Notes: a model not told the origin generated them from the letters alone. A stretch of 64,000 nucleotides of DNA from an uncultured Gammaproteobacteria bacterium (GCA_964638415.1 CAZWYP010000001.1:148650-212649); one strand, 5' to 3'; shown: positions 46,919-64,000, counted from the first letter of the stretch. Numbers and translations: made by a program.

Positions 46919-47009
46919 TGGCGGAGAGTGAGGGATTTGAACCCTCGAGGGCTTTGACACCCTACTCGCTTTCCAAGCGAGCGCACTAGACCACTATGCG
47001 AACTCTCCA
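46919..47009 (-). tRNA. tRNA-Ser (anticodon GGA), long variable arm, encoded CCA
   Basis: Reverse complement folds as a cloverleaf: acceptor GGAGAGU/ACUCUCC, anticodon stem CUCGC/GCGAG, loop UUGGAAA, T-loop GGGTTCAAATCCC; promoter TTGACT, 16-17 nt, TATACT upstream (47027-47054); terminator CTTCTGCACCAGAAG with a T-run downstream (46887-46912). Confidence 0.9.
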
Positions 47010-55894: not shown

Positions 55895-56941
55895 ATGATT
55901 GTTTCCAAAGCCAAAATTTTTCTTTTCCTATTCCCTCTATTGTTAGTGGGAATATTTTTTGTAGCTAAGTTTGTTATTGCTCAATCTTACAATATTGATG
56001 CTCAGGTTAGAATCAGTGTTTGTGGTAACGGTGACGCTGAAGGTGGTGAAGAATGTGATGGAGCTGATTTTAATGGCTTAAGCTGCTCTAACTTTGGTTT
56101 TAGCTCTGGTAATTTAACTTGTGATATCGCTTGTGATATTGATGCCAGTGATTGCCGGAACACTACTGGCGGAGGAGGCGGTGGCGGAGGAGGCGGTGGT
56201 GGCGGCGGGGGAATTCCCCCGGTGCAGACTAGTGTTACTTTTTCCGGCCGGGCTTATCCGCAAAGCGAAGTCACTATTTTAAAAGACGGCCAGATTGCCA
56301 TAACTACTATTGCCGGCCCAGACGCTAATTTTTATGTATCATTAACTGGCTTGGCGGCGGGTAATTATAATTTTGCTGTTTATAGTGAAGACAGTGATAA
56401 TCGCCGCTCAACTCTTTTTACTTTCCCTGTATATATTACTGCTGGCGCTACCACCAATATTAGCGGTATTTATATCGCCCCTACCATTGCCGTAGATAAA
56501 AGTCAGGTTAGGCGCGGGGATAACATAGCTATTTTCGGCCAAACTGTGCCTAGTGCTAATGTGACTATTTCAGTTCATTCCAACCCAGAATATTTCCGTT
56601 ACATTATTGCTGACGAAGATGGTGTTTATTTGCATAATTTTGATACTTCAATTTTGGCTCAAGGCGGCCATAATACAAAATCTAAATCCGCAATAACTGG
56701 AGAAATCAGCTCTTTTGGTCAAACAGTAGGTTTTACCGTGGGTGAAGACAATGTGCCGGCAGAGGAAACAAATGATTTGCCAGCAGATGTTAATAATGAT
56801 AATAAGGTTAATTTAATTGATTTTTCCGTGGCCGCTTACTGGTATGGCCGGGCAAATCCTCCGGCTAATGTCGATCTTAATAAGGATGGCAAAGTGAATT
56901 TAGTTGATTTTAGTATCATGGCTTATCATTGGACTGGTTAA
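55895..56941 (+). CDS. Membrane-anchored protein with a Cys-rich module, a 29-residue poly-Gly linker, Ig-like region and a C-terminal type-I dockerin (two Ca-binding repeats)
   Basis: DVNNDNKVNLIDFSVAAYW and DLNKDGKVNLVDFSIMAYHW fit the D-x-N-x-D-x-x-x-N-x-x-D dockerin consensus exactly. Confidence 0.75.
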   Translation: MIVSKAKIFLFLFPLLLVGIFFVAKFVIAQSYNIDAQVRISVCGNGDAEGGEECDGADFNGLSCSNFGFSSGNLTCDIACDIDASDCRNTTGGGGGGGGGGGGGGGIPPVQTSVTFSGRAYPQSEVTILKDGQIAITTIAGPDANFYVSLTGLAAGNYNFAVYSEDSDNRRSTLFTFPVYITAGATTNISGIYIAPTIAVDKSQVRRGDNIAIFGQTVPSANVTISVHSNPEYFRYIIADEDGVYLHNFDTSILAQGGHNTKSKSAITGEISSFGQTVGFTVGEDNVPAEETNDLPADVNNDNKVNLIDFSVAAYWYGRANPPANVDLNKDGKVNLVDFSIMAYHWTG

Positions 56942-56944
56942 GAT

Positions 56945-57823
56945 ATGCGCAGGTATATATTTTTTATTTTATTAGGATTATTATTTTTTCCCTTCCGTCA
57001 GCTGCAAGCTGCCGAATTGTCGATTATTAACAATTACCAGGCCATAAATATTGGTCAGGAGTTTGAAGTTGTTGTTTATCTTAATACTGAAAATGAAAAA
57101 ATTAATGCTTTATCTGGAAAAATTATTTTTCCTGAACAATATCTGGAGTTAGTCAGAATAAAGAATAATGATTCAGTTATTAATTTTTGGATTGAAATGC
57201 CAAGCTTAAGCCAGCCGGGAGAGGTGTCTTTCTCGGGCATTATTCCTGGAGGATTGGAAGATAATCGTAGTAAAATATTTTCTTTGATTTTCCGAGCTAA
57301 ATCTGCCGGCAGTGAACAGGTGTCTATTTCAGATTTTTCTGCTCTACTTAATGATGGTCAAGGCACAGCGGTTAATACTAAAACTGTTTCTGCTTTATTT
57401 AATATCTCCGATGAAGTCATAGTTTATCAGCCAGGCATAGAGGAGGTGGCTGATTTTGATCTGCCGGAATCATTCAATCCTTTACTTACCCAGATCCCAG
57501 AAATTGCCGATAATAAATATCTTTTAGTCTTTTTGACCCAGGACAAAGGTTCTGGTATTAGCCACTATGAGGTAAAAGAAGGCTGGGGAAGCTTTAAGGT
57601 TGCCACTAGTCCTTATGTTTTAGAGAATCAGAAGTTAAATCAGAAGATTTTTGTCAAAGCTATTGACCAAGCTGGTAATGCCAGAGTGGTTACTTTTATT
57701 CCACCCAATTACCTTCCCTGGTATAAAAATTACCAATTATTTGGTATAATAATACTAGTAATTATCTTTGCTTATTTTTCTCAGCGTTATTCCCACAAAA
57801 ACAAAAAAACAACAAAAACATAA
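56945..57823 (+). CDS. Cohesin-like domain protein 1 (signal, cohesin-like N-domain, shared SGI(S/D)HYE(V/I) domain, C-terminal TM)
   Basis: N-domain pattern (IG..FEV.VYL......INALSGK.IFP...LELV...; ...FRAK..G...VS.......NDGQGT) typical of cohesin beta-sandwiches; paralog of the next gene. Confidence 0.55.
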   Translation: MRRYIFFILLGLLFFPFRQLQAAELSIINNYQAINIGQEFEVVVYLNTENEKINALSGKIIFPEQYLELVRIKNNDSVINFWIEMPSLSQPGEVSFSGIIPGGLEDNRSKIFSLIFRAKSAGSEQVSISDFSALLNDGQGTAVNTKTVSALFNISDEVIVYQPGIEEVADFDLPESFNPLLTQIPEIADNKYLLVFLTQDKGSGISHYEVKEGWGSFKVATSPYVLENQKLNQKIFVKAIDQAGNARVVTFIPPNYLPWYKNYQLFGIIILVIIFAYFSQRYSHKNKKTTKT

Positions 57824-59560
57824 ATGAAAAGATTTTTCGGCAAAGCAATAAGTGTATTTTTATTAGTTGGTGTTTTTTTATTTAACCAAGTCTTATTGGC
57901 TCAGGCCGCTACTATTTTTCCATCTCCTAATTCCGGTAGTTATAATATTGGCAAGTCATTCTCGGTTGGTGTTTTTGTTTCCAGCGCCGATCAGGCTATT
58001 AATGCCGTATCGGGAACTTTATCTTTCCCCAAAGATAAATTAGAAGTCACTTCTGTTTCCAAATCTGGTTCAGTTGTTTCTTTGTGGGTGCAGGATCCTT
58101 CTTTCTCCAATAGCGCCGGCACAGTAAGTTTTGAAGGTATTGTGCTTAATCCCGGTTTTACTGGCGCTAGCGGTAGGATTATAACGGTAAATTTCCGCGC
58201 TAAGAATGGCGGTGCTGCGCCGATTACTTTCTCCGCCGGTTCGGTACTGGCTAATGACGGGCAGGGTACTAATATTTTATCTGGCTTAGGCAGTGCTAGA
58301 TATGATATTGAAGTGCCGGTTTCCGGGCCAGCGGCGCCGGAAGCTGAAACCCCCTCAGCGATTATTGGCACACCGCCGGCTCCTTTGGTTTCTTCCCAAA
58401 CCCATGAAGATCCTGATCGCTGGTATAATAATAATCAGCCGCAATTCAGCTGGTCTTTGCCGGAAGGCATAACCGCCGTTAAATTATTGGCAGATAATAA
58501 GCCGCAAAGCGATCCGTCTGTAGTTTATGCCCAGCCGATTAGTTCCCGCAACCTTGATCAGCTGGAAGATGGTATTTGGTATTTCCATATTCAGTTGCAG
58601 AATAGCGTAGGCTGGGGAGGCATTGCCCATTTCCGTTTCCAGATTGATACCAAGAATCCAGAATATTTCAATATTTCGGAAGTAGCCCGCCAAGACTTAA
58701 CTGAGCCATTTGCCAAGTTTATCTTTGAGGCAGCTGATGAAGTTTCCGGTATTGACCATTATGAGATTCAGATTGATAACAATGAAGCTATTGTCTGGCA
58801 GGATGATGGCACTGGTATTTACCAGACGCCAGTTTTAGCGCCAGGCAAGCACCGGATGATGGTTAAGGTCTTTGACGGCGCCGGTAATAGCATTGCCAAT
58901 TTTGCGGAGTTTGAAATTACCGCTTTAACTTTGCCGACTATTAATAATTTCACCAAGGATTTAACCAGCAGCGAGCGCTTCCGGGCTACCGGCAGCTCTT
59001 ATCCTAATGCTCAGGTAATTTTTGAGCTTAATAAATCAGGTGAAGAAACCGTGACGCTTACCGCTAATACAGATGAGCAGGGTAATTTTGATTTAATCAG
59101 TGAAGACCCATTGGTTGACGGCAAGTATAAGTTGAGAGTGAAAGTGGTGGATAGCAGGGGAGCGCAGAGTTTCTGGACAGAGGATTTTGAGGTTAGGGTT
59201 CAGAAACCGGCATTATGGCGCTTCGGCTCGGTTGCCATCAGCGTTTTGTCAGTGATCATCCCGTTGTTTGCTCTAATTACCTTACTAGCATTTATGCTTT
59301 GGTATAGCTGGCATAAGTTCCGCTCTTTCCGCCGTCGGGTAAGCCGAGAAGTCAGCGAAGCAGAAGTGGTTTTACAGAATGCCTTTGCTAATTTAAAAGT
59401 TAGCGTAGCCAACAGGGTAAAGATGTTGGAAAAAACTGGTCAGAAAAGAGATTTAACACCAGAAGAGGCCAGAATGGTTATGCAGCTTCGCAAGGACTTG
59501 GATCGGGCAGAAAGCATTGTCGCCAAGGAAATTAGGGATATTCAGAAAGAAGTAAAGTAG
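57824..59560 (+). CDS. Cohesin-like domain protein 2 (signal, cohesin-like N-domain, Pro-rich linker, Ig-like domains, TM, cytoplasmic coiled-coil tail)
   Basis: N-domain homologous to the preceding gene (INAVSGTLSFPKDKLEV...FRAKNGGAAPITF...ANDGQGT). Confidence 0.55.
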   Translation: MKRFFGKAISVFLLVGVFLFNQVLLAQAATIFPSPNSGSYNIGKSFSVGVFVSSADQAINAVSGTLSFPKDKLEVTSVSKSGSVVSLWVQDPSFSNSAGTVSFEGIVLNPGFTGASGRIITVNFRAKNGGAAPITFSAGSVLANDGQGTNILSGLGSARYDIEVPVSGPAAPEAETPSAIIGTPPAPLVSSQTHEDPDRWYNNNQPQFSWSLPEGITAVKLLADNKPQSDPSVVYAQPISSRNLDQLEDGIWYFHIQLQNSVGWGGIAHFRFQIDTKNPEYFNISEVARQDLTEPFAKFIFEAADEVSGIDHYEIQIDNNEAIVWQDDGTGIYQTPVLAPGKHRMMVKVFDGAGNSIANFAEFEITALTLPTINNFTKDLTSSERFRATGSSYPNAQVIFELNKSGEETVTLTANTDEQGNFDLISEDPLVDGKYKLRVKVVDSRGAQSFWTEDFEVRVQKPALWRFGSVAISVLSVIIPLFALITLLAFMLWYSWHKFRSFRRRVSREVSEAEVVLQNAFANLKVSVANRVKMLEKTGQKRDLTPEEARMVMQLRKDLDRAESIVAKEIRDIQKEVK

Positions 59561-59926
59561 TTAAATTGTTTTTAAGTAAGTTATAAAACCATTGTTTTTA
59601 AGCAATGGTTTTTATAGCTCTTCAAGTATATGTTTTTTTATTGAAATGTGTTATAATAACCCTAGTTAAAAAATGGTTTTTAATAAAAATTATTTATATT
59701 TAACAGTATGGAAAAGAGAGTAAGTTGGAGAAAGGTTATTTTGTATTATAGCGCCATCATCGCTTCAATGACTAGTTTAGGTGGTTTTGTGACTTCTACT
59801 TCAGGGACATATTTTTTGGTGAACGTTTTGTTTTTACCAGTGCCGATTATTCTCTGGCTGACCATTTGGGAGAATAAGAGTAAGAAAGATAATCATTTCA
59901 ACTAATTCTATTTAATTACTAAACCT

Positions 59927-60106
59927 ATGTTTGGCTTAGGAAACAGGGAAATAATCATCATTGCTATTGTGCTAGTATTGTTGTTTGGAGCGAAAAAAAT
60001 ACCAGAATTGGCTAAGAATATTGTGGAAGCCTTCAAACATTTAACCAGTGTTTTCAAGGATGATTCTTCCCAGTCTAAAGATAAATTGACGGAAAATAAA
60101 AAATAA
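59927..60106 (+). CDS. tatA: Twin-arginine translocase subunit TatA/E (59 aa; below the 60-aa ORF-track cutoff)
   Basis: MFGLGNREIIIIAIVLVLLFGAKKIPELAKNIVEAFKHL: TM helix, FG hinge, amphipathic helix as in TatA. Confidence 0.8.
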   Translation: MFGLGNREIIIIAIVLVLLFGAKKIPELAKNIVEAFKHLTSVFKDDSSQSKDKLTENKK

Positions 60107-60121
60107 AAATAAACTGCGAAC

Positions 60122-60739
60122 TTGATGCTTGTCTCGCGCTATTCTTTTAAATTTTTGTCGCGGGCGGAAGTAAGGAATATCCGCCAGTCTTTGTATCCCG
60201 CTAAAGCCGATACAGCTAATGCTTCAGCAGCAGTAAGAGATGAGAGCAAGCGTTCTTTTCTCAAGCTAGCCGGTTTAGTTGGCTTGGGAGTATTTACCTC
60301 TTCTTTAATACCCAAAAAAGCCAAGGCTTTAGTTTTTGGCTCCACGCCTGCTTCCAATGTGGTAGGCGTCAAGAATGAGAGCGATGTCAGAATTAATCCG
60401 GCTACGGAGGAAACTCTCGGCTCGTTATTAACTGGTCAGGAAGTCAATAAATTGTCTACCAGTTTGTCTTCTTCAGGCAATGTGTTAGTGCCGGCTTCTG
60501 GCAAGAAAATTAGAGTGTATAGCACTCGTTTTTCTTTAACCGCTGATCTTACTTCAGTTTCTTTCCGCTTTACTTCCGGCGGCACTGACCACGAAAAATA
60601 TGTCAGTCCTAAAACTGGGGGCCTGTATGGCGCTAATAACCACCCTAATTTCGTAGAAGGCGGCATTGATGAAGCTTTATATTGCGTTATTTCCGGCACC
60701 GGCACTGTGCAAATTAATATTGATTATTTAGAAATATAA
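60122..60739 (+). CDS. Hypothetical exported protein with a KR-type twin-arginine-like signal (SKRSFLKLAGLVGLGVF...AKA)
   Basis: Matches the S/T-R-R-x-F-L-K consensus with a K-R variant, an h-region and AxA; directly downstream of tatA. Confidence 0.5.
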   Translation: MMLVSRYSFKFLSRAEVRNIRQSLYPAKADTANASAAVRDESKRSFLKLAGLVGLGVFTSSLIPKKAKALVFGSTPASNVVGVKNESDVRINPATEETLGSLLTGQEVNKLSTSLSSSGNVLVPASGKKIRVYSTRFSLTADLTSVSFRFTSGGTDHEKYVSPKTGGLYGANNHPNFVEGGIDEALYCVISGTGTVQINIDYLEI

Positions 60740-60751
60740 TAAAAAAATACT

Positions 60752-62899
60752 ATGGCCAAAAGAGTAGTTGAACATGTTTTCACCGGTGCAACAGTTTCTT
60801 ATACCGCTTATGATTCCACTAAAACAGTTCTAGGTGAAATGATCCAGCAGCAGACTGGCGCTAATCCCAAAGATAAATATGCCGGACCAATGCCCATTGG
60901 TTTAGCTAGGCCAATGGAAGCTGGTACTGCGATCTCCAGTGCCTATCCTCACGCCATTACTTTCAGTGATGATTTGATTTGGGTATTTTTGGCGGAAATC
61001 AGTACGGCGGCAGCAACTAGAAAAATTAGTGCTTATTCTTTCACTAAATCTACTAATGTTTTTGATTGGTTAGGTTATATTACCTTGACTTTCCCTCCTA
61101 ACACAGCTCATACCGTTCGTGGATTTCGTGTGAGTCGCGAACTTTATACCACCGGTACAGCATCAGCTAGCGGCACGGCTGTAACGGGAACTGGCACCGC
61201 TTGGTCAGCGAGTTTATTAGCAGCAGGCTGTCGGATAGGATTTGGATCAGCTGATCCTACCCAAATTACCACTTGGTACGAAATTTCCTCCATTGGAGGT
61301 GACACCTCTATTACTTTAACGGCCACAGCTGGCACAGTGGTTGATGGCCCCTATGTTATTGAAGATTTGCGAGCAGTAGTTTCAACAACTAATGCCACTT
61401 TAACTAATGGTGGTTTATTTGTAGCAAAGGGTTTAAGAATTGAAAACTTTAATAGCTCTGGAACAACCATTCCGGCCGCTACCACTACTGACAATATCCG
61501 AGCGGTTTATTGGCTGGCTGACGCTGCCACAGTTACCAATACCATTGCTTGCGGTTGCGCCATTGATGATAAAGTCTCTTGGACCGAGCAATACGTTTAT
61601 ATTATTGATGGTACTACTACGACTTGCCGGGTTTACAAATATAATATTAGAGCATCGCTTACCTCTTTATCTTCAGGTAAAAGTACAGCCGCTTGGTCTT
61701 TGACTACGGGAGCGCAAACTCCAACCGGCACGGTGTCCCAAGCTAATAATGGAAGAATTGGTGCTTTGAATCATAATCCAGATGCCGGCACTAAATTTTT
61801 ATATTTTGTTTCAACCACGCGTGTTCTCAGGGCTTTAGTCAGCGGTTTGACTAGTGGTAATACTTCTTGGCAGACTGACACAATGATGGAAGTCCCGCCT
61901 GGCGGATCCTCGACTTTTACGGTCAGCGGCGCCCTGTCTTCTTGCGAAATTTCCAGCATTATCGATCGTTTGGTGATTGTCAGCACTGGTGCAGCTAGCC
62001 AGCGCGGTTATGTGACTAAATTTTATACCGATGGTTCCAATTTTGATCACATTTTCTTAGTTGATGATAAACAGCTGGATCAGAGCTCAGCTGACAGCGG
62101 CGGAGTCACGCACCCGGGAATTTCGACCTCAGCTTTTTCTATTTGGTCAGAGCAAGGCATATTGTTTCTTTGTCGAGGCACTACTTCCGCTACTTCCAAT
62201 CAGTTATACAGTATGCCACTCGGTGCTCATTGGACTTATGCCGGTAATGCCGTAAAACAGCGTTTGATTACTCCGGTCTTAGCTTTGCCAGACATCTCGT
62301 CCTTCGGTAGAATTTTTGTTAATGCCGCTGTGCAATTAGGCAGCGGCACGATGGGTTTACCACCGGAGCCTTATCGTGTTTATTATCGGACCGAAGGTAT
62401 TGATGATGATAGTGGTGATTGGACGCTAATTTCTCAGCACGCGACTGCCGGTGATACTATGGATTTAAGCTCGGTTAGCGCGACTTCGCAAATTCAATTA
62501 ATGTTTGAATTTAAAACAATTGGAGGATATTGTATTCCCGCCAGAATTTACAGTTGTGGAGTAATTTATGAAGATAACACTACAGATTCTCATTATCAAC
62601 CATCAGTTGGTCAATCATCAATAACCAATAAATATTTTGCCTGGAGATTTTCCACCGCTTTTGGTTCTACAGTGCCGACCCTAACCATTAAATTATATGA
62701 TGCTGTTACTGCAGGTTTATTATTAACCGATGATACTGCCAGCCAAGCTAATGGAACTTTTGAAAAGAGTACTGATGGTGGGCAAAGTTGGGGAGCTTAT
62801 AATACCACCGACAAAGCTAATGAAACAACCTATATCCGTTATACGCCCAGTTCTTTGGCTGACAATATTAAAGTTAGAGCTTTACTAACTAGAGTTTAA
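60752..62899 (+). CDS. Large hypothetical Thr/Gly/Ser-rich beta-rich protein (715 aa), no N-terminal signal, GC-rich
   Basis: ORF only. Confidence 0.5.
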   Translation: MAKRVVEHVFTGATVSYTAYDSTKTVLGEMIQQQTGANPKDKYAGPMPIGLARPMEAGTAISSAYPHAITFSDDLIWVFLAEISTAAATRKISAYSFTKSTNVFDWLGYITLTFPPNTAHTVRGFRVSRELYTTGTASASGTAVTGTGTAWSASLLAAGCRIGFGSADPTQITTWYEISSIGGDTSITLTATAGTVVDGPYVIEDLRAVVSTTNATLTNGGLFVAKGLRIENFNSSGTTIPAATTTDNIRAVYWLADAATVTNTIACGCAIDDKVSWTEQYVYIIDGTTTTCRVYKYNIRASLTSLSSGKSTAAWSLTTGAQTPTGTVSQANNGRIGALNHNPDAGTKFLYFVSTTRVLRALVSGLTSGNTSWQTDTMMEVPPGGSSTFTVSGALSSCEISSIIDRLVIVSTGAASQRGYVTKFYTDGSNFDHIFLVDDKQLDQSSADSGGVTHPGISTSAFSIWSEQGILFLCRGTTSATSNQLYSMPLGAHWTYAGNAVKQRLITPVLALPDISSFGRIFVNAAVQLGSGTMGLPPEPYRVYYRTEGIDDDSGDWTLISQHATAGDTMDLSSVSATSQIQLMFEFKTIGGYCIPARIYSCGVIYEDNTTDSHYQPSVGQSSITNKYFAWRFSTAFGSTVPTLTIKLYDAVTAGLLLTDDTASQANGTFEKSTDGGQSWGAYNTTDKANETTYIRYTPSSLADNIKVRALLTRV

Positions 62900-62908
62900 A
62901 TTAAATTT

Positions 62909-63466
62909 ATGGTTCACATTGATCAACATCAAGCTGTGCCCGAACGGGAAGATCTAAAGGTTTTTAGCCCGACTGGGGATTATCAGGATAACGATTTAAT
63001 TGATTGTTATAAAATAACTGATCCCAGTTTTCCAATCTGTTCATTCCAGGCCCAATTTATTAAGTACGGTTCCTTAGTTTACAAATTTAATTCAGAGGAT
63101 TTATTAGCTGAGGAAATTATGAAAATTGACCCAGAGTCAATTCACGATTCGGTAGTTTTTTATAAAGAGGATAAGCAGAGGAAAAAGATGAGAGAAGAGG
63201 GTAAATTAAAACCTGAAAAACCGGATAGCCCAGTTGTGCCGGAACCGTTACCGCCAGTCCAAGAGGAGGAAATAATTCCTACTCCTATTCCTGAACCAAC
63301 ACCAGAAATAATCCCAGAAAAACCAGTTGTAATACCTAATGAAGAAGTAGTTCCTACTCCACCTTCAATCACCCCGGAGGCTACTCCTGATGTTATAGAT
63401 TATGGGTCAGATATTCCCAGTGTTGAGGATCGGAAGAAACTTTATAAGTATTTACCAAAAGAATAA
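62909..63466 (+). CDS. Hypothetical protein with a Pro-rich C-terminal half (PEP(L/T)P.. repeats)
   Basis: ORF only. Confidence 0.5.
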   Translation: MVHIDQHQAVPEREDLKVFSPTGDYQDNDLIDCYKITDPSFPICSFQAQFIKYGSLVYKFNSEDLLAEEIMKIDPESIHDSVVFYKEDKQRKKMREEGKLKPEKPDSPVVPEPLPPVQEEEIIPTPIPEPTPEIIPEKPVVIPNEEVVPTPPSITPEATPDVIDYGSDIPSVEDRKKLYKYLPKE

Positions 63467-63634
63467 ATGGCTTTATCTGATATAAATTTTCAAGAATCCG
63501 AAGGCCAGGATTTTATCCTAGAATTACCAGCCGGCACTTTAAATTCCCCGGATGATATATTAGCGGAAGCTGACGGCGGTTTGTTATTGATGGAAGAACC
63601 GGCTAAAGGTGATATTTTTATTATGTCTGAATAA
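63467..63634 (+). CDS. Small acidic protein (55 aa); ATG overlaps the upstream stop
   Basis: Read manually; not in the ORF track because it is under 60 aa. Confidence 0.35.
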   Translation: MALSDINFQESEGQDFILELPAGTLNSPDDILAEADGGLLLMEEPAKGDIFIMSE

Positions 63635-63635
63635 T

Positions 63636-64000
63636 ATGGGGGAAGTTAATAGAAAATTAACTGACTATTACCAGTACTTTGACGATATCAGGCAGAGGAT
63701 ATACGGATTAGCAATTATCTTTACCTTGTTCTTTATTGTCGGTTTTGCTGGCTCCGCCCAGATTTTAAAAGTGATTATTAGTTTCTTTAAATTAGAAAAT
63801 GTGGCTATTGTCATTACTTCCCCTTTTCAGTTTCTGGATTTAGCTATGAGCATTGGCGTTTATACCGGTTTGATTATTTGTTTGCCCCTGTTTATTTACC
63901 ACCTCTATGCTTTTTTAAAAGACAGTTTGTATAAAAAAGAAAGGAAATTGTTTTTCTGGCTATTGCCTATTGGCTTATTATTATTTTCCGCCGGTTTTAC
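63636..64000 (+). CDS. tatC: Twin-arginine translocase subunit TatC, N-terminal part (continues past the window end)
   Basis: Manual translation MGEVNRKLTDYYQYFDDIRQRIYGLAIIF...TSPFQFLD...PLFIYHLYAFLKDSLYKKERKLFFWLLPIGLLLF matches the TatC pattern (compare PLLFYQIWAFIAPGLY..ER). Confidence 0.75.
   Translation, partial: MGEVNRKLTDYYQYFDDIRQRIYGLAIIFTLFFIVGFAGSAQILKVIISFFKLENVAIVITSPFQFLDLAMSIGVYTGLIICLPLFIYHLYAFLKDSLYKKERKLFFWLLPIGLLLFSAGF

What the first reader, a model, noticed from the sequence alone, without database searches (positions are those of the whole stretch)
59927..64000. tatA and tatC separated by four cargo-like genes, the first carrying a KR-type twin-arginine-like signal
TatA (59927-60106) and TatC (from 63636) are unmistakable but are split by about 3.5 kb. 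The intervening genes are a protein with a SKRSFLK h-region AKA signal, a 715-aa Thr/Gly-rich beta protein, a Pro-rich protein and a 55-aa acidic peptide. They are tightly packed with ATGA and TAAATG overlaps. All four have GC above the genome background. This suggests a Tat system dedicated to, or co-transcribed with, a specific folded substrate complex. The 715-aa protein lacks its own signal and could be exported by hitch-hiking with the KR-signal protein. Alternatively it may be an insertion into an ancestral tatAC operon.
Basis: partly seen in the sequence, partly recalled or inferred. Interest (0 to 1): 0.6.

Follow-up and report, generated by a model that had tools for sequence, protein, structure and literature searches.

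The report
Tat export operon with phage-derived cargo
In this ultra-small (Patescibacteria/CPR) bacterium the folded-protein export genes tatA and tatC form one conserved operon with four unannotated genes that have relatives in phage tail-gene regions. This suggests that this Tat system mainly serves to export one phage-derived complex, probably to the cell surface.

Summary
The gene layout is real: tatA (59927-60106), four tightly packed ORFs (A 204 aa, B 715 aa, C 185 aa, D 55 aa) and tatC (from 63636). Some details are wrong. GC is not elevated. There are no ATGA overlaps. A second tatA lies directly after tatC, just beyond the window.

The linkage is deeply conserved. All 48 complete A-B-C-D cassettes in species-representative Patescibacteria genomes have tatC in the same locus. 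The usual order is A-B(x1 or x3)-C-D-tatC-tatA(-tatA); the window shows a rarer permutation.

All 189 distinct orfA sequences carry [KR]R-x-[FL]-[LIVF]-[KR]; among the 174 with the strict motif [KR]RxF[LM]K, 88% have KR and 12% RR. The motif is followed by a weakly hydrophobic h-region, a basic c-region and usually AxA.

B, C and D have no signal peptide. B is an all-beta, propeller-like protein. It has hundreds of 42-56% identical relatives in phage contigs, usually next to tail-fibre genes. Phages also pair B with a longer A-like protein that has a coiled coil where the CPR protein has its Tat signal.

Best reading: a cargo-linked TatAC system exports a phage-derived A·B complex by hitch-hiking. 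Export, complex formation and function are untested. I found no prior description.

The parts
59586..59613 (+). Terminator-like hairpin (AAAACCATTG / CAATGGTTTT, T-rich) after the upstream 578-aa surface-protein gene; probable upstream boundary of the transcription unit
   Evidence: Read directly from the sequence. The consensus scan did not call it because the stem is AT-rich.
59649..59657 (+). Extended -10-like element TGTTATAAT; candidate promoter for the cluster (a consensus match only)
   Evidence: Read directly from the sequence. Promoter-like sites in this region are no more frequent than in shuffled sequence.
59708..59905 (+). 65-aa ORF with two hydrophobic stretches, just upstream of tatA; whether it belongs to the system is unknown
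   Evidence: ORF list. Called as a gene on the public contig (L164). No Pfam match.
59927..60106 (+). tatA paralogue 1 (59 aa). It is most similar to the distal, second tatA of close relatives.
   Evidence: Pfam TatA_B_E E 9e-11; NCBIfam tatAE; paralogue comparison.
60125..60328 (+). orfA signal peptide, about 68 residues: long n-region, SKRSFLK at 60245-60265, G/A-rich h-region, basic c-region, AKA at 60320-60328
   Evidence: Sequence. Alignment of 28 homologues. Motif statistics on 189 sequences. h-region Kyte-Doolittle hydropathy (KD) 1.72 against 2.3-2.95 for neighbouring Sec signals. Pfam TAT_signal is the only family hit but is below threshold, 14.7 against 22.7 bits.
60329..60739 (+). 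Mature orfA: GSTP...VVGVKN..RINPATEE segment plus a ~100-residue highly conserved C-terminal beta domain (the 'A-domain', proposed cargo-binding part)
   Evidence: Alignment. The same domain sits at the C-terminus of signal-less proteins that lie next to B in phage-like contigs. The AF2 model of orfA alone is poor, pLDDT 49.
60752..62899 (+). orfB, 715 aa, all-beta, propeller-like, no signal peptide; proposed hitch-hiking cargo
   Evidence: More than 1,700 homologues. AF2 pLDDT 86, pTM 0.79. Weak fold matches to phage endosialidases and beta-propellers. 186 relatives in IMG/VR.
62909..63466 (+). orfC, 185 aa: conserved ~85-aa N-terminal domain plus a variable Pro/Glu-rich tail; no signal peptide
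   Evidence: HMM family of 71 sequences. Short versions of about 60 aa lie next to B in phages.
63467..63634 (+). orfD, 55 aa, strongly acidic (family mean net charge -10), conserved termini
   Evidence: HMM family of 69 sequences. Homologues follow B in many phage contigs.
63636..64000 (+). tatC, first 121 codons. The gene runs off the window; the full length is 247 aa and a second tatA follows.
   Evidence: Pfam TatC E 3e-18. Complete gene and downstream tatA2 on L164. NCBIfam tatC E 3e-34.

Best explanation
This is one operon for a minimal TatA/TatC translocase and its own cargo.

Shown:
- tatA, orfA-D and tatC (plus a second tatA) are contiguous.
- This linkage is conserved across Patescibacteria.
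- orfA carries a conserved Tat-type signal, with KR as the usual form and RR in a minority.
- orfB, orfC, orfD and the C-terminal domain of orfA have homologues in phage and phage-like contigs. The B gene usually lies next to tail-fibre genes. The B-adjacent A-like protein has a coiled-coil N-terminus where the CPR protein has its Tat signal.

Inferred:
- orfB folds in the cytoplasm, perhaps as a trimer, with help from orfC and orfD.
- The C-terminal domain of orfA binds orfB.
- TatC recognises the KR signal of orfA, and the assembled A·B complex crosses the membrane by hitch-hiking.
- The signal is then cleaved at AxA or kept as a membrane anchor.

Most speculative: the exported complex is a surface appendage that binds or degrades cell-envelope glycans. 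The target may be the host of this probably episymbiotic bacterium, or the bacterium's own wall.
For: Synteny:
- In 78 species-representative genome loci the dominant orders are A-B-C-D-tatC-tatA (23) and the same with a second tatA (18). Permutations include tatA-A-B..-C-D-tatC as in the window. All 48 cassettes with at least 1.2 kb on both sides have tatC in the locus.
- In the reverse search from TatC, 35 loci were canonical and 7 had a variant orfA cassette, out of 56 informative loci.

Signal:
- All 189 unique orfA sequences have [KR]R-x-[FL]-[LIVF]-[KR]. Among the 174 with the strict motif, 153 are KR and 21 RR.
- The uncharged stretch is 16-19 residues with mean KD 1.6. AxA is present in 161 of 174. 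K or R is the first charge after the h-region in 168 of 174.
- The h-region is less hydrophobic than neighbouring Sec signals.
- A basic c-region as Sec avoidance, and a tolerated KR pair, are both documented (PMC6708511, PMC3471235).
- orfA is the only ORF in the 64 kb with such a motif.

Carrier-cargo link:
- orfA always directly precedes B.
- Variant orfA proteins keep the signal and the INPATEE segment but have a different C-terminal domain where the cargo is a different ~950-aa Kelch-like protein.
- Some proteins fuse the signal directly to those repeats.
- In phage-like contigs without tat genes, signal-less A-like proteins lie directly upstream of B (L096, L246, L247).

Phage relatives:
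- 186 IMG/VR relatives span GC 29-72%. Tail-fibre, tail and virion families dominate the genes just upstream.
- B lies in a prophage tail module in Roseomonas and in phages with terminase, portal and capsid genes.

Fold: B is confidently all-beta. Its best matches are phage endosialidases and other propellers.
Against: - There is no experimental evidence for export, cleavage or an A·B complex.
- The signal is KR, not RR. Pfam TAT_signal scores 14.7 bits against a cutoff of 22.7, and even RR orthologues stay below it. The NCBIfam scan listed no family for orfA, so no Tat-signal model matched.
- The motif sits about 45 residues from the N-terminus, which is unusually far.
- Distance-matrix correlation gives no specific support for A-B co-evolution. 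A-B gives r 0.22, against 0.50 for A-TatC, 0.49 for B-C and 0.43 for B-D.
- The orfA model alone is poor.
- If B is a trimer (about 236 kDa plus A), the complex would be larger than any Tat cargo I know of.
- Fold matches have low TM-scores (0.2-0.3), so 'tailspike-like' is only a loose description.
- B is unusually conserved for a receptor-binding protein, 73-96% identity within one phage clade. It sits at varied positions in phage genomes, so it may be an accessory gene rather than a virion part.
- Some CPR tatC loci have no recognisable cassette upstream, for example L178. Whole genomes could not be scanned, so 'dedicated' is not proven.
Confidence: 0.6

Rival explanations
1. Only orfA is a Tat substrate. 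orfB, orfC and orfD act in the cytoplasm or leave the cell another way, and the gene linkage reflects co-regulation rather than co-export.
For: There is no direct evidence for an A·B complex. The A-B distance correlation is weak (r 0.22). B correlates better with C and D, which also accompany it in phages without any Tat. A possible B trimer would be very large for Tat.
Against: The A-then-B order is strictly conserved. The C-terminal domain of A changes when the cargo class changes. Propeller-type repeats are fused directly behind the same Tat signal in L167:2790-4334, P0342 and P0361. A-like/B pairs occur in phage-like contigs.
Confidence: 0.2
2. The four genes are a mobile or prophage-derived insertion that landed in an ancestral tatAC operon, so the link to Tat is accidental.
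For: B, C, D and the A-domain all have homologues in phage or phage-like contigs. CPR and phage B sequences interleave in a neighbour-joining tree. The B tree correlates poorly with TatC (r 0.19).
Against: All 48 cassettes in different species are Tat-linked, in several gene orders. GC is ordinary. Flanking genes are housekeeping and differ between genomes, and no terminase or portal gene appears among the Pfam-annotated genes around the CPR loci. orfA itself carries the Tat signal. tatC is still followed by a tatA in this genome.
Confidence: 0.03
3. The N-terminus of orfA is not a Tat signal. It is a Sec signal or a plain membrane anchor, and its position next to tat genes has another cause.
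For: The motif is KR rather than RR. Tat-signal profile models stay below threshold. The n-region is unusually long.
Against: The [KR]R-x-F-L-K consensus is invariant, and KR and RR interchange among orthologues. The h-region has low hydrophobicity and the c-region is basic, both typical of Sec avoidance (PMC6708511). TAT_signal is the only Pfam family that matches the segment. The gene always lies beside tatC and tatA.
Confidence: 0.07
4. The export route is the same, but the function is housekeeping. The complex remodels the bacterium's own cell wall or helps division, as the Tat-exported amidases AmiA and AmiC do in E. coli, rather than acting on a host.
For: In variant cassettes the gene directly upstream of tatC encodes a glucosaminidase-family peptidoglycan hydrolase (PF01832; L227, L243). 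Mature A and B are more conserved than TatC in the same genomes, with mean distances of 0.27 and 0.39 against 0.54. That fits a conserved target. The AmiA/AmiC precedent is from my own knowledge.
Against: The canonical cassette has no recognisable hydrolase domain. The phage relatives lie among tail-fibre genes, which points to action on another cell's surface.
Confidence: 0.2

Closest known systems
Bacillus subtilis phoD-tatAd-tatCd (a minimal TatAC translocase encoded beside, and co-expressed with, its single known cargo PhoD; PMC6708511)
   Same: A two-component TatA/TatC system with no TatB. The cargo gene with the Tat signal lies directly beside the translocase genes on the same strand. 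More than one tatA paralogue is present.
   Different: Here the cargo is a four-gene module, not one enzyme. Only the small first protein has a signal. The motif is predominantly KR. The cargo has phage homologues and no known enzymatic domain. The linkage is conserved across many Patescibacteria lineages rather than known from one model organism.
Hitch-hiker Tat export of multisubunit enzymes (E. coli hydrogenase-2 HybO/HybC, DmsA/DmsB; heterodimer export with the signal on one partner, PMC10924467)
   Same: A small subunit with a long Tat signal is encoded next to a larger subunit with no signal. Small accessory proteins are encoded alongside.
   Different: No redox cofactor or cofactor-binding motif was recognised. 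The partner proteins are unrelated to hydrogenases or molybdoenzymes. Complex formation is not shown. The accessory proteins C and D also accompany B in phages, so they are probably B-specific rather than chaperones that bind the signal peptide.
Phage tailspikes and tail fibres with beta-propeller heads (endosialidases of phages K1F and phi92; PDB 1v0e, 4hiz)
   Same: Best structural matches to the orfB model. orfB homologues lie at the distal end of phage tail modules. The copy number of one or three would fit a trimer.
   Different: TM-scores are only about 0.3 and sequence identity about 10%. No profile match to PDB sequences was found. Sialidase catalytic residues were not examined. Conservation is far higher than is usual for receptor-binding proteins. 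No homologue was found in 50,697 deposited phage genomes.

Membership tests
Minimal TatAC translocase (Gram-positive type) | TatA/E-family protein present | tested here: met
   Pfam PF02416 E 9e-11 against a cutoff of 21 bits. The second paralogue on L164 has the MLGLG...KKIP pattern.
Minimal TatAC translocase (Gram-positive type) | TatC present and full length | tested here: met
   Pfam PF00902 E 3e-18 on the 121 residues in the window. The full protein is 247 aa on L164; NCBIfam tatC gives E 3e-34 but 118.7 bits, below the equivalog cutoff of 132.7.
Minimal TatAC translocase (Gram-positive type) | No separate TatB | tested here: inconclusive
   Only short TatA-like paralogues (45-63 aa) lie in the loci. 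Whole genomes could not be searched.
Twin-arginine signal peptide | S/T-R-R-x-F-L-K consensus with two arginines | tested here: not met
   The window has S-K-R-S-F-L-K. Among 174 strict-motif homologues 153 are KR and 21 RR. All other consensus positions are met. KR is a documented tolerated variant (PMC3471235).
Twin-arginine signal peptide | Weakly hydrophobic h-region, basic c-region, AxA site | tested here: met
   h-region KD 1.72 against 2.3-2.95 for neighbouring Sec signals. K or R is the first charge after the h-region in 168 of 174, and AxA is present in 161 of 174.
Twin-arginine signal peptide | Reaches the curated score of a Tat-signal profile (Pfam PF10518) | tested here: not met
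   14.7 bits against 22.7. It is the only family hit. An in-silico K-to-R change gives 19.4 bits, and RR orthologues give 13-18.
Twin-arginine signal peptide | Export depends on Tat and on the paired basic residues | not testable with these tools
   Needs reporter export assays.
Hitch-hiker co-export | Partner lacks any signal and is encoded beside the signal-bearing subunit | tested here: met
   The orfB N-terminus MAKRVVEHVFTG... has no hydrophobic stretch. The A-B order is conserved in the loci where both genes are seen.
Hitch-hiker co-export | The subunits form a complex before transport | not testable with these tools
   The evidence is only indirect: A-like/B pairs in phage-like contigs, domain swaps and fusions. 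The mirror-tree analysis was uninformative.
Cargo-linked dedicated Tat system (PhoD-TatAdCd type) | Cargo gene adjacent to tatA/tatC | tested here: met
   All 48 cassettes with sufficient flanks have tatC in the locus.
Cargo-linked dedicated Tat system (PhoD-TatAdCd type) | This translocase serves only this cargo | tested here: inconclusive
   orfA is the only motif-bearing ORF in the 64-kb window. Full genomes were not available, and some CPR tatC loci lack a cassette.
Phage tailspike / endosialidase-like beta-propeller | Shared fold over most of the protein | tested here: inconclusive
Phage tailspike / endosialidase-like beta-propeller | Encoded in phage tail modules | tested here: met
   This holds for homologues, not for the window copy. 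Upstream neighbours are mostly tail-fibre and tail families. One copy lies in a Roseomonas prophage tail module.
Phage tailspike / endosialidase-like beta-propeller | Sialidase catalytic residues | not tested
   I only saw two Asp-box-like motifs by eye (IDDDSGDW, STDGGQSW). Several of their residues are invariant or nearly so in alignment A2.

The most novel reading that the evidence does not exclude
Patescibacteria captured a two-protein phage fibre or spike module (an A-like adaptor plus the B propeller, with helpers C and D). They replaced the adaptor's virion-attachment coiled coil with a KR-type Tat signal and fixed the module next to tatC-tatA. In these genome-reduced cells Tat would then be essentially a single-purpose secretion system. 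It would place a cytoplasmically assembled, phage-derived organelle on the surface, where it attaches to or breaches host cells.
Probability: 0.35. Interest if true: 0.85.

Novelty: new variant of a known kind. Interest (0 to 1): 0.72.

Why it matters
Patescibacteria have reduced genomes, and the Tat cargoes I know best are cofactor-containing redox enzymes. Why these bacteria keep Tat has not been explained: surveys only note that TatA and TatC are present (PMC9166423). A cargo module conserved beside Tat offers a concrete and testable answer.

It also points to a candidate surface structure for the poorly understood contact between these episymbionts and their hosts. It supplies a large natural family of KR-type Tat signals. 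It may be a case of phage structural proteins being reused by a cell through the one export route that accepts folded proteins.

Finally, it flags a large, strongly conserved and wholly unannotated phage protein family.

Tried and rejected
- Pfam, PHROGs, NCBIfam and PADLOC gave nothing significant for orfA-D. The only hit was a weak tail-fibre PHROG match to orfB.
- Profile searches of PDB sequences with the orfA and orfB alignments found nothing.
- tblastn of orfB against 50,697 deposited phage genomes found no match.
- The AF2 model of orfA was too poor to use, pLDDT 49.
- A pattern scan of viral contigs with the orfA alignment returned one locus, because the patterns were CPR-specific. An iterated HMM search for the A-domain near B in the IMG/VR loci found only L096.
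- The neighbour-joining tree of 196 B proteins could not resolve who donated to whom, because its backbone branches are very short.
- The mirror-tree test for A-B co-evolution was uninformative.
- The promoter and terminator scan found no more sites than in shuffled sequence.
- A defence-system reading of the phage module was considered; PADLOC gave no support.
- A capsid-protein reading of B was considered and rejected. The same phage contigs encode proteins that match major-head (capsid) PHROG families.
- Seven literature searches found no description of this operon.

Full report
**What is in the window**

The + strand from 59.9 kb to the end of the window carries six genes:
- tatA, 59927-60106 (Pfam TatA_B_E, E 9e-11)
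- orfA, 60125-60739 (204 aa; an in-frame TTG lies at 60122)
- orfB, 60752-62899 (715 aa)
- orfC, 62909-63466 (185 aa)
- orfD, 63467-63634 (55 aa)
- the first 121 codons of tatC, from 63636 (Pfam TatC, E 3e-18)

The gaps between them are 18, 12, 9, 0 and 1 nt. The composition claims hold: orfB is Thr/Ser/Ala/Gly-rich, orfC is 14.6% Pro, and orfD has net charge -12.

Two details are wrong. GC is not raised: orfA and orfB are 0.435 and orfC and orfD about 0.38, against a window mean of 0.404 and a gene range of 0.32-0.45. There is also no ATGA overlap.

A public contig carrying this same gene cluster (it encodes an identical orfB) shows what lies just beyond the window. tatC is complete at 247 aa. 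A second tatA of 45 aa follows 7 nt later, and then a surface protein with a Sec-type signal (L164). The real order is therefore tatA1-A-B-C-D-tatC-tatA2.

**The organism**

The exact proteins occur on one 228-kb contig held by NCBI. All close homologues come from Patescibacteria/CPR genomes labelled Magasanikbacteria, Paceibacteria, Nomurabacteria, Adlerbacteria or Zambryskiibacteria.

**Conservation of the linkage**

orfB has more than 1,700 homologues and orfA 687. Among the 120 best hits listed for each, most are 50-80% identical and none carries an informative name.

I fetched 78 loci from species-representative genomes with the orfB alignment. The arrangements were:
- A-B-C-D-tatC-tatA: 23 loci
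- the same with a second tatA: 18 loci
- A-B-B-B-C-D-tatC-tatA: 6 loci
- rarer forms: tatC-tatA(-tatA)-A-B-C-D, a divergent tatA/tatC pair facing the cassette, and the window's own order tatA-A-B..-C-D-tatC (L060, L062, L032)

All 48 cassettes with at least 1.2 kb on both sides have tatC in the locus. The window's upstream tatA is most similar to the distal, second tatA of its closest relatives. This suggests that one paralogue moved to the front.

I also ran the search in reverse, from an alignment of CPR TatC proteins against metagenome contigs. Of 56 loci with usable upstream sequence:
- 35 had the canonical cassette;
- 7 had an orfA variant followed by a different large protein;
- 14 had nothing that my HMMs recognised, several of them with little sequence available.

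One of these, L178, clearly has unrelated genes upstream: a histidine kinase and a response regulator.

**The signal**

An alignment of 28 orfA homologues shows an invariant D-x-x-[K/R]-R-x-F-L-K. A G/A-rich hydrophobic stretch follows, then Pro, a basic residue and A-x-A.

Across 189 unique sequences every one has [KR]R-x-[FL]-[LIVF]-[KR]. Among the 174 that match the strict form:
- 153 have KR and 21 have RR;
- the uncharged stretch is 16-19 residues, with mean Kyte-Doolittle hydropathy (KD) 1.6;
- AxA is present in 161;
- the first charged residue after the h-region is K or R in 168;
- the motif sits at a median position of residue 47.

The window's h-region scores 1.72, against 2.3-2.95 for the Sec-type signals of neighbouring genes. 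A basic c-region as Sec avoidance and a tolerated KR pair are both documented (PMC6708511, PMC3471235).

The profile models are not decisive. On the isolated signal segment, Pfam TAT_signal is the only family that matches. It scores 14.7 bits against a cutoff of 22.7. An in-silico K-to-R change gives 19.4 bits, and natural RR orthologues give 13-18. orfA is the only ORF in the 64 kb with such a motif followed by an uncharged stretch.

**The cargo proteins**

- orfB is predicted with confidence (pLDDT 86, pTM 0.79) as an all-beta protein.
- Its Foldseek matches are phage endosialidases, the T7 tail complex and assorted beta-propellers. TM-scores are only 0.2-0.3.
- orfC has a conserved N-terminal domain of about 85 residues and a Pro/Glu-rich tail of variable length.
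- orfD is about 60 aa with a mean net charge of -10.
- None of the three has a signal peptide.
- In cassettes that contain both orfA and orfC, orfB is present once (46 loci) or three times (10 loci), never twice. The three paralogues form separate old clades. This would fit a trimer, but that is inference.

**Relatives in phages**

orfB homologues at 41-50% identity stand alone, without A, C, D or tat, in MAGs labelled Roseomonas, Polaromonas, Lysinibacter and Opitutia. In Roseomonas the gene follows baseplate, tail-fibre and tail-fibre-assembly genes.

IMG/VR holds 186 relatives at 42-56% identity, on contigs with GC from 29 to 72%. These are often followed by an orfD homologue, sometimes accompanied by a short orfC-like gene, and never by tat genes.

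Of 122 proteins lying one or two genes upstream of B in viral contigs, the most frequent named PHROG families are tail fibre, tail protein, virion structural protein and collagen-like minor tail. Some contigs are unmistakable phages with terminase, portal, protease and capsid genes. Deposited phage genomes have no homologue.

**The carrier also has phage relatives**

A whole-library profile search with orfA found two groups.

The first group holds 290-621-aa proteins with no Tat signal. They have an N-terminal coiled coil, INPATEE-like and other repeats, and the orfA C-terminal domain at their end. Where I could see their context, they lie directly upstream of an orfB homologue in phage-like contigs:
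- L096: portal, A-like, B, C-like, then protease and capsid;
- L246;
- L247: A-like, B, D-like, two small membrane proteins and a 286-aa protein.

The second group keeps the Tat signal and the GSTP...INPATEE segment but has a different C-terminal domain. These proteins occur in cassettes where the cargo is a signal-less Kelch-like protein of about 950 aa. A glucosaminidase-family peptidoglycan hydrolase follows it, and then tatC-tatA. Some members fuse the signal directly to the Kelch-like repeats (L167:2790-4334, P0342, P0361).

orfA therefore looks modular: an export module joined to a cargo-specific domain. The A-domain/B pairing also occurs without Tat in phage-like contigs, which fits a phage origin for the pair. 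This is the best indirect support for hitch-hiking.

**Evidence that does not fit neatly**

- Distance-matrix correlations over 62 loci are 0.22 for A-B, 0.50 for A-TatC, 0.49 for B-C, 0.43 for B-D and 0.19 for B-TatC. There is no specific A-B co-evolution signal.
- The same figures suggest that B, with C and D, has moved independently of TatC. This agrees with the interleaving of CPR and phage clades in a poorly resolved tree.
- Mature orfA and orfB are more conserved than TatC in the same genomes, with mean distances of 0.27 and 0.39 against 0.54.
- One phage clade of B is 73-96% identical across more than 100 clusters. That is unusual for a receptor-binding protein, so B may have a constrained enzymatic or structural role.
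- A trimeric B plus A would exceed the size of any Tat cargo I know of.

**Comparison with known systems and novelty**

The closest known arrangement is B. subtilis phoD-tatAd-tatCd, a minimal TatAC system co-expressed with its single known cargo (PMC6708511). The closest known mechanism is hitch-hiker export with the signal on one partner (PMC10924467).

This case differs in several ways. The cargo is a multi-gene module with phage homologues and no recognised cofactor or enzyme domain. The signal is predominantly KR. The linkage is conserved across many Patescibacteria lineages.

Seven full-text searches found only a survey noting that Paceibacteria have TatA and TatC (PMC9166423). I rate it a new variant of a known kind.

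**Verdict**

My confidence by step, as a personal judgement:
- a cargo-linked Tat operon with orfA as a Tat substrate: about 0.85;
- orfB as a hitch-hiker: about 0.55;
- a role at the cell surface in host contact or envelope degradation: about 0.3.

Noticed in passing
window 55895-59560: Three consecutive genes directly upstream encode proteins with Sec-type signals. Their domain hits are dockerin plus Big_6 (55895-56941, which also contains a run of 15 glycines), sub-threshold cohesin (56945-57823), and Big_13 plus sub-threshold cohesin (57824-59560). The Tat operon thus sits in a neighbourhood of surface proteins.
   Followed up: no
window 59708-59905: A 65-aa ORF with two hydrophobic stretches lies between a terminator-like hairpin and tatA. 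It is called as a gene on the public contig. I did not check whether relatives have it.
   Followed up: no
L164:10452-11254 (just beyond the window end): A second, divergent 45-aa tatA follows tatC. After it comes a protein with a Sec-type signal and GTRSLTTFGTLV-like repeats.
   Followed up: partly
L048, L054, L060, L062, L066-L068, L074, L078, L080 (and L037): In complete cassettes orfB occurs once or as three tandem paralogues (about 880, 810 and 945 aa), never twice. Each paralogue forms its own clade. This may mean homo- versus hetero-trimers.
   Followed up: partly
L227, L197, L188, L167, L229, L191, L243: There is a second class of Tat-linked cassette: an orfA variant, a ~950-aa Kelch-like protein without a signal, and a 270-340-aa protein that carries a glucosaminidase (PF01832) domain in the two tested (L227, L243), then tatC-tatA.
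   Followed up: partly
L084-L163, L070; proteins P0393-P0512: The phage-borne orfB family is large (more than 1,300 homologues of the Roseomonas prophage copy, many 73-96% identical). It is entirely unannotated and absent from 50,697 deposited phage genomes. Its role in phages is unknown.
   Followed up: partly
62 loci with single A, B, C, D and TatC: Mature orfA and orfB are more conserved than TatC in the same genomes, and orfB distances correlate poorly with TatC (r 0.19). This suggests that the cargo has been exchanged horizontally, possibly through phages.
   Followed up: partly
L001 (618-kb ENA contig): An orfB homologue 67% identical to the window's copy, with an orfC homologue, has no orfA or tat gene within 8 kb. 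It sits among housekeeping genes. It is an exception to the linkage.
   Followed up: no
L010-L083 record titles: Many species-representative MAGs that carry this operon are titled 'uncultured Candidatus Saccharibacteria' or 'Gammaproteobacteria'. Yet their operons match those from genomes labelled Paceibacteria or Parcubacteria. The labels may be unreliable.
   Followed up: no
window 46919-47008 (- strand): tRNA-Ser(GGA) is the only RNA gene that ARAGORN or Rfam found in the 64 kb.
   Followed up: no
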